Translations under genes and position numbers: made by a program
Notes under the pieces: generated by a model
Databases searched by the model: none
What the model was told of the DNA's origin: nothing
What the model saw: the letters and a program-made list of their open reading frames with translations, nothing else
Shown here: in pieces, positions 27,256 to 27,403 of the stretch
How positions within the stretch are numbered: position 1 is the first letter of the stretch
Layout of the letters: each line of letters starts with the position of its first letter
NCBI GenBank assembly: GCA_038045665.1
Contig: JBBSXW010000068.1
Location: 3,251-51,922 of the forward strand
From: Nanobdellota archaeon
GTDB taxonomy: Archaea; Nanobdellota; Nanobdellia; SCGC-AAA011-G17; JACPIM01
Length of the DNA stretch: 48,672 nt
Direction: 5' to 3'

Positions 27256-27273
27256 GCTTTTAAAACTTAAATA
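27256..27273 (+). promoter_or_regulatory. 18-nt promoter-like element GCTTTTAAAACTTAAATA (copy 2), upstream of tRNA-Val
   Basis: Exact repeat of 26334-26351. It ends 15 nt before tRNA-Val position 1. Confidence 0.5.
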
Positions 27274-27287
27274 AATAATTACGATAA

Positions 27288-27403
27288 GGGCCCGTAGTCT
27301 AGAACATAGTGGACAATAGCTATGACGTCGCCTTGAAAGGTTTATTTTTTTAAACTTTGGGCACACGTGGCGGAGGTCGCGGGTGCAAATCCTGCCGGGC
27401 CCA
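27288..27403 (+). tRNA. tRNA-Val(GAC) candidate with two BHB introns (27303-27316; 27336-27364, the latter inside the anticodon)
   Basis: Spliced model (73 nt): GGGCCCG-TA-GTCT-AGTAGCTA-TGAC-G-TCGCC-TTGACGT-GGCGG-AGGTC-GCGGG-TGCAAAT-CCTGC-CGGGCCC-A.
- D-loop intron (14 nt): helix GTCT/GGAC, bulges AGA/AAT.
- Anticodon intron (29 nt, position 34/35): central helix GCCT/GGGC, bulges TGA/ACA, 8-bp inner helix AAGGTTTA/TAAACTTT.
The unspliced loop reads TTGAAAG and mimics Phe(GAA), but the canonical 37/38 BHB does not fold. Confidence 0.55.

What the first reader, a model, noticed from the sequence alone, without database searches (positions are those of the whole stretch)
27288..27403. Intron inside the anticodon: the gene looks like Phe(GAA) unspliced but splices to Val(GAC)
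The unspliced anticodon loop reads TTGAAAG, so a naive call would be Phe. The canonical 37/38 BHB cannot form there: TTGA versus CACA.

A clean motif does form with these parts:
- central helix GCCT/GGGC
- bulges TGA and ACA
- an 8-bp inner helix

This cuts between anticodon positions 34 and 35 and gives loop TTGACGT (GAC, Val). The tRNA body (GGGCCCG...TATGACG...GGCGGAGGTC) also resembles archaeal tRNA-Val as I remember it.

A second oddity appears after removal of the 14-nt D-loop intron. The D-loop reads AGUAGCUA, with G18 C19 instead of G18 G19. The T-loop reads UGCAAAU, with G55 instead of the near-universal U55. This may be a compensating change in the D/T-loop elbow contact, but that is speculative.
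Basis: partly seen in the sequence, partly recalled or inferred. Interest (0 to 1): 0.6.

Follow-up and report, generated by a model that had tools for sequence, protein, structure and literature searches.

The report
Two-intron valine tRNA with swapped elbow
A valine tRNA gene of a tiny uncultured archaeon is split twice, once inside the anticodon so that the raw DNA reads like a phenylalanine tRNA, and its mature form replaces a 'universal' corner contact of tRNA (G18 with U55) by a matched A18/G55 pair that many relatives share.

Summary
The sequence is exactly as described. Window 27288-27403 (+) is a tRNA-Val(GAC) gene with two protein-spliced (bulge-helix-bulge) introns: 14 nt between positions 15/16 and 29 nt between 34/35. 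Removing both gives a 73-nt cloverleaf that ARAGORN calls Val(gac). Intron-free orthologues in related genomes have the same body and the same anticodon loop. Two orthologues keep an intron at the same anticodon site. In one of them the junction is unambiguous.

A separate Phe(GAA) gene exists in the genome, so the Phe reading is rejected.

The D-loop differs from normal orthologues by one base, G18 to A18; G19 and C56 are kept. A18 co-occurs with G55:
- Among 124 intron-free Val genes of the order, 118 are G18/U55, 6 are A18/G55 and none is mixed.
- All 13 archaeal hits selected on G55 have A18.
- 46 of 49 metagenome hits selected on A18 have G55.
- The 28 distinct variant sequences keep all stems through compensatory changes.

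A18/G55 matches the general T-loop rule seen in riboswitches. I found no paper describing it in tRNA. This scan has already noted the same swap on other DNA (bacteria, phages, an Asgard archaeon).

The parts
27258..27265 (+). TATA-like box TTTTAAAA, 23-30 bases upstream of tRNA position 1 (inferred promoter)
   Evidence: Read directly. The spacing is typical of archaeal promoters (established knowledge). Not tested.
27288..27302 (+). Exon 1: tRNA positions 1-15 (acceptor 5' strand, U8 A9, D-stem 5' strand GTCT, A14 G15)
   Evidence: Intron-free orthologues carry the same string.
27303..27316 (+). Intron 1: 14 nt between positions 15 and 16. It is a relaxed BHB: central helix 27297-27300 with 27311-27314, bulges AGA and AAT, only a 2-bp inner helix
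   Evidence: The same site and the same central helix, with unrelated inner helices, occur in G007, G194, G278, G012, G004 and G047.
27317..27335 (+). Exon 2: positions 16-34. U16, A18 (27318), G19 (27319), the rest of the D-arm, G26, anticodon stem 5' strand TCGCC, U32 U33 G34 (27335)
   Evidence: For the alignment with the normal D-loop AGTGGCTA.
27336..27364 (+). Intron 2: 29 nt between anticodon positions 34 and 35. Central helix 27330-27333 with 27359-27362, 5' bulge TGA (27334-36), inner helix 27337-44 with 27351-58 (8 bp), 3' bulge ACA (27363-65), no contiguous outer helix (HBh' type)
   Evidence: G007 and G194 have an intron at the same site, with a compensatory change in the central helix and unrelated inner helices.
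27365..27403 (+). Exon 3: positions 35-73. A35 C36 (27365-66), G37 U38, anticodon stem 3' strand, variable loop AGGTC, T-arm with T54 G55 C56 A57 A58 (27384-27388), acceptor 3' strand, A73. No encoded CCA
   Evidence: The T-loop TGC is shared by orthologues.

Best explanation
This is the gene for the tRNA-Val that reads GUU/GUC (anticodon GAC) in a small DPANN archaeon. Relatives' record titles say Woesearchaeota/Nanoarchaeota.

How it most likely works:
1. The primary transcript carries two short introns.
2. Each intron folds with neighbouring exon bases into a relaxed bulge-helix-bulge motif.
3. The archaeal splicing endonuclease cuts after the second base of each 3-nt bulge.
4. RtcB joins the exons.
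5. The anticodon intron borrows three bases of the anticodon stem plus U32 for its central helix. This shifts the cut from the usual 37/38 site to 34/35. The anticodon G34|A35 C36 is therefore assembled only by splicing.

The mature 73-nt tRNA has an unusual elbow: A18 in the D-loop and G55 in the T-loop replace G18 and (pseudo)U55. The outer G19-C56 pair and the T54-A58 pair are kept.

Shown: the sequence features, the spliced product, conservation of both intron sites, strict A18/G55 co-occurrence, and stem covariation in the variant class.

Inferred: actual splicing in vivo, and that A18 intercalates and bonds to G55 as the adenosine/guanosine pair does in non-tRNA T-loops. If so, the swap is a structurally equivalent solution and not a defect.
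For: Splicing outcome:
- Removing the two introns gives a cloverleaf that ARAGORN calls Val(gac). With only the D-loop intron removed, ARAGORN itself places a 29-nt intron at 34-35.
- Intron-free or differently split orthologues have the same body and the loop TTGACGT or TTGACTT (L005, L010, L025, L040, L045).
- G007 and G194 keep an intron at the same anticodon site. The central helix covaries with the exon: GCCT/GGGC becomes ACCT/GGGT. The inner helices of 8, 5 and 9 bp share no sequence. In G194 the intron starts with T, so only a 34/35 cut gives GAC.

Gene set of the genome:
- Val(UAC) at C29 has the same anticodon stem and D-stem.
- Phe(GAA) is a separate gene at C55.
- GUU is the commonest Val codon at 30 per 1000.

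Splicing enzymes:
- One EndA homologue is present.
- RtcB is present.

Elbow:
- A pattern left open at positions 18 and 55, run over 240 genomes of the order, gave 118 G18/U55, 6 A18/G55 and 0 mixed.
- 11 of 11 A18 genes in a sample of 401 genomes of the phylum have G55 (one is an unpublished genome, G555).
- 13 of 13 archaeal hits selected on G55 have A18.
- 46 of 49 metagenome hits selected on A18 have G55.
- 28 distinct variant sequences pair in 94.9% of stem cells. 12 of 21 pairs show double changes. The covariation score is 0.571, against 0.203 when shuffled (0 of 500 shuffles reach it) and 0.06-0.13 when the partner is slid.
- Intron-free variants score 54-62 bits against Rfam tRNA.

Structural logic:
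- Residue 18 intercalates between T-loop positions 4 and 5 and bonds to residue 55 (PMC4810234).
- Non-tRNA T-loops prefer UGNRA, with an intercalated adenosine bonded to the position-2 G (preprint 10.1101/2022.12.26.521914).
Against: - No RNA data exist. Splicing and the mature sequence are predictions.
- Both BHB motifs are relaxed. Neither has a contiguous outer helix, the D-loop intron has only a 2-bp inner helix, and the minimum-free-energy fold pairs two bases of the 3' bulge.
- The only EndA found aligns without gaps to the strict alpha4 enzyme of M. jannaschii. No second subunit was found, and the assembly is 78% complete.
- The A18-G55 contact is inferred from sequence and analogy. 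No 3D model was made.
- Intermediates with A18 and U55 exist (L072/L098, and the outer gene in L085), so the pairing is not absolute.
- Relatives are not independent samples.
Confidence: 0.87

Rival explanations
1. It is a tRNA-Phe(GAA) gene with an ordinary intron one base 3' of the anticodon (37/38).
For: The unspliced loop reads TTGAAAG. Cutting at 37/38 also removes 29 nt and gives a cloverleaf that ARAGORN calls Phe(gaa).
Against: - The central helix needed for a 37/38 BHB has 1 pair of 4.
- The body matches Val genes, not the genome's Phe gene.
- Intron-free orthologues read GAC.
- The G194 orthologue would read GTA, not GAA, if left unspliced.
- A separate Phe(GAA) gene exists.
Confidence: 0.02
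2. It is a decaying pseudogene. The loss of G18 and U55 and the failure of tRNA finders reflect damage, not design.
For: ARAGORN and Rfam miss it. G18 and U55 are called universal in reviews.
Against: - 28 distinct A18/G55 Val sequences keep 95% of stem pairs, with many compensatory changes.
- Both changes always come together.
- It is the only Val(GAC) gene seen in this assembly, and in the 95-98% complete genomes G025 and G051, in the searches run.
- GUU and GUC make up 58% of Val codons.
Confidence: 0.03
3. The elbow change is G18 C19 with G55. That would mean a re-paired 19-55 or 18-56 contact and not an 18-55 swap.
For: The D-loop string AGTAGCTA contains GC, and the T-loop contains GC. 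In principle two antiparallel Watson-Crick pairs could form.
Against: - Normal orthologues with the same 8-nt loop read AGTGGCTA, one substitution away (L006, and many rows).
- C56 is invariant in all variants.
- The 18-55 swap matches the general T-loop rule.
Confidence: 0.06
4. The A18/G55 tRNA-Val is a separate, mobile or specialised gene lineage. It might spread by transfer, escape a T-loop-directed enzyme, or not serve in ordinary translation. On this view it is not a simple neutral variant of the housekeeping gene.
For: - The distribution is patchy: 12 of 240 genomes of the order in 3 families, and 11 of 401 in the phylum sample.
- G181 has both a normal and a variant Val(GAC).
- Two species of one genus (G006, G011) have different elbow types with different intron layouts.
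- One metagenome contig shows one Val gene nested in an intron of another.
- Earlier scan notes report the swap in many phage tRNAs (unchecked).
Against: - In G000, G025 and G051 it is the only Val(GAC) gene seen.
- It shares a homologous 15/16 intron with normal orthologues of the same family.
- A neighbouring ORF is shared with the normal locus of G006.
- The same genus has an A18/G55 tRNA-Thr(CGU). This argues for a tolerated design, not one special gene.
Confidence: 0.1

Closest known systems
Non-canonical and multiple BHB introns in archaeal tRNA genes (Thermoproteales, Nanoarchaeum, ARMAN/DPANN; reviews PMC4090602 and PMC4033280; Kaneta 2018, PMC5829648)
   Same: - Short protein-spliced introns defined by a 4-bp helix flanked by 3-nt bulges.
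- Relaxed HBh' forms.
- Several introns per gene.
- Missed by standard finders.
- EndA and RtcB are present in the genome.
   Different: - One intron lies inside the anticodon triplet (34/35). That site is not among those listed in the review I could read (20/21, 22/23, 25/26, 29/30, 30/31, 45/46, 53/54, 56/57, 59/60). I could not consult the full Thermoproteales catalogue.
- The only EndA found shows no insertion relative to the strict alpha4 enzyme.
Canonical tRNA elbow (G18-Psi55, G19-C56, T54-A58; Zhang and Ferre-D'Amare 2016, PMC4810234)
   Same: G19, C56, T54, A58, G53-C61 and the loop lengths are kept, so the flat outer face read by RNase P, the ribosome and enzymes is unchanged.
   Different: G18 is A and U55 is G, so there is no substrate for pseudouridine-55 formation. 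The review calls Psi55 universally conserved.
General T-loop with intercalated adenosine (FMN and cobalamin riboswitch T-loop/receptor pairs; preprint 10.1101/2022.12.26.521914)
   Same: The loop sequence U-G-N-R-A has G at position 2, and an adenosine is supplied by the partner loop. This is the combination favoured in those RNAs.
   Different: Here it occurs in a tRNA, where the G/U combination is the rule. The actual A18-G55 geometry is untested.
Non-proteinogenic tRNA-Gly of Staphylococcus (PMC4574755)
   Same: Natural cytoplasmic tRNAs that lack G18, G19, U55 and C56.
   Different: - Those tRNAs lose the contacts without a matched replacement and serve cell-wall synthesis.
- Here only the 18-55 layer is exchanged, in a matched way.
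- Here the tRNA appears to be the housekeeping decoder of GUY codons.

Membership tests
Archaeal BHB (protein-spliced) tRNA intron | 4-bp central helix with a 3-nt bulge 3' of each strand; cuts after the second bulge base | tested here: met
   Both introns have the 4-bp helix and two 3-nt bulges. The cuts give a 73-nt cloverleaf.
Archaeal BHB (protein-spliced) tRNA intron | Flanking outer and inner helices (strict hBHBh') | tested here: not met
   The anticodon intron has an 8-bp inner helix but no contiguous outer helix. The D-loop intron has a 2-bp inner helix and no outer helix. Both are therefore relaxed forms, which the literature reports as substrates only for broad-specificity endonucleases.
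Archaeal BHB (protein-spliced) tRNA intron | Structure conserved while sequence drifts in orthologues | tested here: met
   Same sites in G007 and G194 (34/35), and in G007, G194, G278, G012, G004 and G047 (15/16). The inner helices are unrelated, and the central helix shows a compensatory change.
Archaeal BHB (protein-spliced) tRNA intron | Splicing endonuclease and RtcB ligase encoded | tested here: met
   EndA is at G000:C54:5238-5762 (96 bits to PF01974; best PDB match 3IEY_A). RtcB is at G000:C5 (496 bits).
Archaeal BHB (protein-spliced) tRNA intron | Intron actually removed in vivo | not testable with these tools
   No RNA data are available.
tRNA (Rfam RF00005) | Cloverleaf that scores above the family threshold | tested here: inconclusive
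   The unspliced gene scores 13.7 bits against a threshold of 29. The spliced product could not be given to Infernal, but ARAGORN accepts it. Intron-free orthologues of the same type score 54-62 bits.
tRNA-Val | Anticodon NAC (A35 C36) and discriminator A73; body like the other Val genes | tested here: met
   GAC after splicing and A73. The D-stem and anticodon stem are identical to the genome's Val(UAC) gene. All orthologues read GAC, CAC or UAC.
tRNA-Val | Charged by ValRS | not testable with these tools
   Needs an aminoacylation assay.
Canonical tRNA elbow | G18 and U55 | tested here: not met
   A at 27318 and G at 27385.
Canonical tRNA elbow | G19-C56 and T54-A58 | tested here: met
   G 27319, C 27386, T 27384, A 27388. 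These are invariant in 28 variant sequences.
General T-loop motif with adenosine intercalator | Pentaloop U-G-N-R-A plus an adenosine from the partner loop | tested here: met
   The T-loop is TGCAA and the partner is A18. A18 and G55 co-occur strictly in the neutral sample.
General T-loop motif with adenosine intercalator | Adenosine stacks between positions 4 and 5 and bonds to G2 | not testable with these tools
   Needs a 3D structure or probing.

The most novel reading that the evidence does not exclude
The A18/G55 elbow is a working alternative tRNA design that the searchable literature does not describe. It recurs across archaea, bacteria and phages. It has consequences of its own: no pseudouridine-55, altered recognition by T-loop-directed enzymes or defence nucleases, and perhaps altered translocation, which depends on the 18-55 pair. 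In these DPANN archaea it would mark a tRNA-Val lineage that is exchanged or repeatedly re-created, not simply inherited.
Probability: 0.25. Interest if true: 0.75.

Novelty: new variant of a known kind. Interest (0 to 1): 0.5.

Why it matters
Practical point: a gene needed to read the commonest valine codons is invisible to standard tRNA finders. A canonical-intron assumption would mislabel it as Phe. tRNA inventories and 'missing tRNA' claims for DPANN genomes therefore need BHB-aware curation.

Structural point: G18 and Psi55 are treated as universal, and the 18-55 pair has been tied to translocation speed. A natural elongator tRNA class that is conserved and covarying, and that swaps the pair for A18/G55, gives a ready-made test. 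One can ask what that contact does, and whether tRNA can use the same T-loop solution as riboswitches and rRNA.

Tried and rejected
- A loose genome-wide scan for further GAC or GAA anticodon arms followed by a T-arm gave only noise. I did not use it. The absence of a second Val(GAC) gene rests on the stricter acceptor/T-arm scan and on an assembly that is 78% complete.
- Literature searches for A18-G55, U55G and related terms found no paper on this swap in tRNA.
- I could not confirm whether a 34/35 intron has been catalogued before. The Thermoproteales catalogue (Sugahara 2008) is not held, and the reviews I read do not list that site.
- The record titles 'uncultured Methanosarcinales' for three variant-bearing MAGs suggested a spread to methanogens. 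These genomes are 0.9-1.4 Mb. Two of them are placed in the same class as this genome, so I rejected that idea.
- I first took the swap to be specific to Val. The same-genus genome G001 has an A18/G55 tRNA-Thr(CGU), so it is not.
- EndA subtype (alpha4 or alpha-beta) could not be settled.

Full report
WHAT IS THERE

Window 27288-27403 (+) begins with a GC-rich 7-base string that pairs perfectly with 27396-27402, followed by A. It sits in an AT-rich spacer. A TTTTAAAA box lies 23-30 bases upstream, and no CCA is encoded.

ARAGORN finds no tRNA in the whole window. Rfam finds nothing at gathering score. The Rfam tRNA model reaches only 13.7 bits on part of the region.

The window belongs to a 717-kb, 34% GC, 82-contig assembly that is 78% complete. 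ARAGORN finds only 8 tRNAs in that assembly, and Rfam finds 9 above threshold. A simple scan of my own for a T-arm followed by an acceptor strand with its complement upstream found 17 tRNA-like genes of 86-171 nt. Nearly all are interrupted. Titles of related records read Woesearchaeota or Nanoarchaeota.

THE TWO INTRONS

I enumerated all 4-bp helices flanked by 3-nt bulges.
- GTCT/GGAC with bulges AGA and AAT, giving intron 27303-27316.
- GCCT/GGGC with bulges TGA and ACA and an 8-bp inner helix, giving intron 27336-27364.

About forty weaker cores also appear, so the motif alone proves little. Both motifs are relaxed: neither has a contiguous outer helix, and the D-loop intron has only a 2-bp inner helix.

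Cutting after the second bulge base and joining the exons gives a 73-nt cloverleaf that ARAGORN calls tRNA-Val(gac). With only the D-loop intron removed, ARAGORN in intron mode itself reports Val(gac) with a 29-nt intron at 34-35. The minimum-free-energy fold of the precursor contains both central helices and the 8-bp inner helix. The canonical 37/38 alternative needs TTGA to pair with CACA, which it cannot.

COMPARATIVE PROOF

A BLAST of the gene against 60 related genomes, with the sequences read, shows the following:
- G025 and G051 (another family) have an intron-free gene with the same D-loop, the same kind of T-loop and anticodon GAC.
- G004 and G047 have the loop TTGACGT uninterrupted. 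That is exactly the loop predicted here.
- G045 has an ordinary 37/38 intron in the same loop.
- G007 (same family) and G194 (a third family) have introns at both of the sites used here.

At the anticodon site the central helix changes from GCCT/GGGC to ACCT/GGGT, together with the matching change in the mature anticodon stem. The inner helices (8, 5 and 9 bp) share no sequence. In G194 the intron begins with T, so only a cut between 34 and 35 yields GAC. In G000 and G007 the base A is repeated at both junctions, so 34/35 and 35/36 give the same product.

The 15/16 intron recurs at the same site with the same central helix in seven genomes. Some of these have a normal elbow. A Val(UAC) gene of G020 has its intron at 33/34, so introns that displace the cut into or next to the anticodon are a habit of this order.

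The genome has a separate Phe(GAA) gene at C55:11947-12065. It scores 45.7 bits, and the model alignment shows CUGAA in the loop.

It also has a Val(UAC) gene at C29 whose D-stem and anticodon stem are identical to those of this gene.

No other Val(GAC) gene was seen, but the assembly is incomplete. GUU is the commonest Val codon at 30.0 per 1000, and GUC adds 5.7. A GAC tRNA is therefore needed.

One EndA homologue is present: 175 aa, best PDB match the N. equitans catalytic subunit, next to an RNase Z-like gene. RtcB is also present. Kaneta et al. 2018 (PMC5829648) had already linked DPANN EndA variants to heavily disrupted and incompletely predicted tRNA sets.

THE ELBOW

After splicing, the D-loop is AGTAGCTA and the T-loop is TGCAAAT. 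Normal Val genes of the order with the same loop length read AGTGGCTA or close variants (L006; about 118 rows). The variant therefore differs by one base, G18 to A18. G19 is kept, and so is C56.

I tested the link between A18 and G55 in three directions:
1. Selecting on G55. A pattern for the T-arm and acceptor end, run over one genome for each of 185,579 species, gave 13 archaeal hits. All are tRNA-Val (GAC or CAC), and all have AGTAGCTA or AGCAGCTA.
2. Selecting on the A18 D-arm in metagenome contigs. This gave 50 loci, of which 49 are assessable. 46 have TGC. Three have TTC (L072 and L098, which are identical, and the outer gene of L085).
3. A neutral pattern left open at both positions, run over all 240 species genomes of the order. 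It gave 124 intron-free Val genes: 118 G18/U55, 6 A18/G55, none mixed. The reversed-pattern control gave 0 hits.

In a sample of 401 high-quality genomes of the phylum, 11 carry an intron-free A18 Val gene, and all 11 have G55. One of these, G555, is an unpublished genome. No claim here rests on it alone.

Kinship inflates any p-value, so I give counts only.

THE VARIANT GENES ARE UNDER tRNA CONSTRAINT

An alignment of 28 distinct intron-free variant sequences pairs in 94.9% of stem cells. Twelve of 21 pairs show changes on both sides. The covariation score is 0.571, against 0.203 for shuffles (0 of 500 reach it) and 0.06-0.13 for slid partners. Intron-free variants score 54-62 bits against Rfam tRNA, close to a normal neighbour at 65 bits.

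DISTRIBUTION

The variant T-arm occurs in 12 of 240 genomes of the order, in three families, and in several further families of the class.

It is found in Val(GAC), in Val(CAC) and once in Val(UAC) (G002, L103). Other genomes keep a normal Val(UAC) beside a variant GAC (G025, G051, and G000 itself).

G181 has one normal and one variant Val(GAC). The same-genus genome G001 has an A18/G55 tRNA-Thr(CGU), so the swap is not confined to Val.

Variant and normal Val(GAC) genes of this family share a homologous 15/16 intron. A flanking ORF of G000 is homologous to the ORF beside the normal gene of G006. Switching within one gene lineage therefore seems to occur, and A18/U55 intermediates exist. Gene replacement or transfer is not excluded.

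WHY A18/G55 IS PLAUSIBLE

In the tRNA elbow, residue 18 intercalates between T-loop positions 4 and 5 (57 and 58) and bonds to residue 55. G19-C56 forms the flat outer face that RNase P, the ribosome and many enzymes read (PMC4810234).

In T-loops outside tRNA, the favoured loop is U-G-N-R-A, and the intercalating base is almost always adenosine, bonded to the position-2 G (preprint 10.1101/2022.12.26.521914).

The variant thus changes only the inner layer, and it changes it to the combination that other RNAs use. This is inference from sequence and analogy. No structure was modelled.

One consequence follows directly: there is no U55 to convert to pseudouridine. I found no Pus10 homologue above threshold in this assembly, but the other tRNAs keep U55.

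COMPARISON WITH WHAT IS KNOWN

Non-canonical, multiple and relaxed BHB introns are well known in Thermoproteales, Nanoarchaeum and ARMAN. This gene is a new member of that kind, with an uncommon site.

For the elbow, the nearest published natural case I found is the non-proteinogenic tRNA-Gly of Staphylococcus. Those tRNAs lack G18, G19, U55 and C56 without a matched replacement (PMC4574755). Searches for A18-G55 in tRNA found nothing.

Earlier notes of this scan (AI notes, unchecked by me) report the same A18/G55 swap in CPR bacteria, SAR11, an Asgard tRNA-Cys and many phage tRNAs. They make the same T-loop comparison. I reached the A18/G55 reading before seeing them (note). They suggest the design is widespread.

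VERDICT

- Observation: confirmed.
- Interpretation: supported, with the 18/19 numbering corrected.
- The intron is a new member of a known kind.
- The elbow is a new variant of a known kind.
- Both still need RNA-level evidence.

Noticed in passing
L085 (metagenome contig OBEQ010818746.1), minus strand, about 1-330 as printed: A complete normal tRNA-Val(GAC) gene lies inside what reads as a 26/27 intron of an outer tRNA-Val(GAC) gene. The outer gene has the A18 D-loop but a TTCGA T-loop that is itself split. This is a tRNA gene nested in another tRNA gene's intron.
   Followed up: no
L100 (G181:C16:1600-1900, minus) and L091: A variant Val(GAC) gene with a 37/38 intron of about 170-190 nt built from tandem A-rich repeats of about 37 nt. 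The same genome also has a normal, intron-free Val(GAC) (L104).
   Followed up: partly
L107 (G001:C26:55300-55620), about 168-257: The same-genus genome has a tRNA-Thr(CGU) with a 37/38 intron, D-loop AGTTAGTG (A18) and T-loop TGCAAAT (G55). The elbow swap is therefore not limited to tRNA-Val.
   Followed up: partly
L099:1261-1785 (G000:C54:5238-5762): The only splicing endonuclease homologue is 175 aa. It aligns without gaps to the strict alpha4 enzyme of M. jannaschii and lacks the insertion present in the N. equitans catalytic subunit. No second subunit was found, yet the genome is full of relaxed, non-canonical introns. It lies beside an RNase Z-like gene.
   Followed up: partly
G000:C5:1094-2469 (-): The RtcB ligase gene shows one in-frame TAA near its N-terminal end in the six-frame match. 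The cause could be an annotation or start-site matter, a sequencing error or a real break.
   Followed up: no
Rows (order-wide Val genes) and alignment A1: Many Val(GAC) genes of this order have U at position 37 (loop TTGACTT), where a purine is usual. All of them have a conserved U13-U22 mismatch closing the D-stem.
   Followed up: no
L038, L046, L048 (records titled 'uncultured Methanosarcinales archaeon'): These MAGs are 0.9-1.4 Mb. For L046 and L048, the genome search places them in the same class as this DPANN genome (same contig coordinates under handles G439 and G289). The record titles look wrong.
   Followed up: partly
L031, L032, L039 (bacterial MAG contigs): A T-arm plus acceptor end with T-loop TGCAAAT also occurs in Caulobacterales, Acidimicrobiaceae and Actinomycetes contigs. 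These may be A18/G55-type tRNAs or tRNA-like ends.
   Followed up: no
L016 (G020:C3), Val(UAC) gene: The intron lies at 33/34, directly 5' of the anticodon. Its central helix CGCC/GGTG is borrowed from the anticodon stem, and it has a 9-bp inner helix. This is a second example in the order of a cut displaced towards the anticodon.
   Followed up: partly
G000:C55:6622-6861 (-): The only match to the archaeal Pus10 (pseudouridine 54/55 synthase) model is a partial 41.5-bit hit, far below the 200-bit cut-off. No clear Pus10 is present in the 78%-complete assembly.
   Followed up: no
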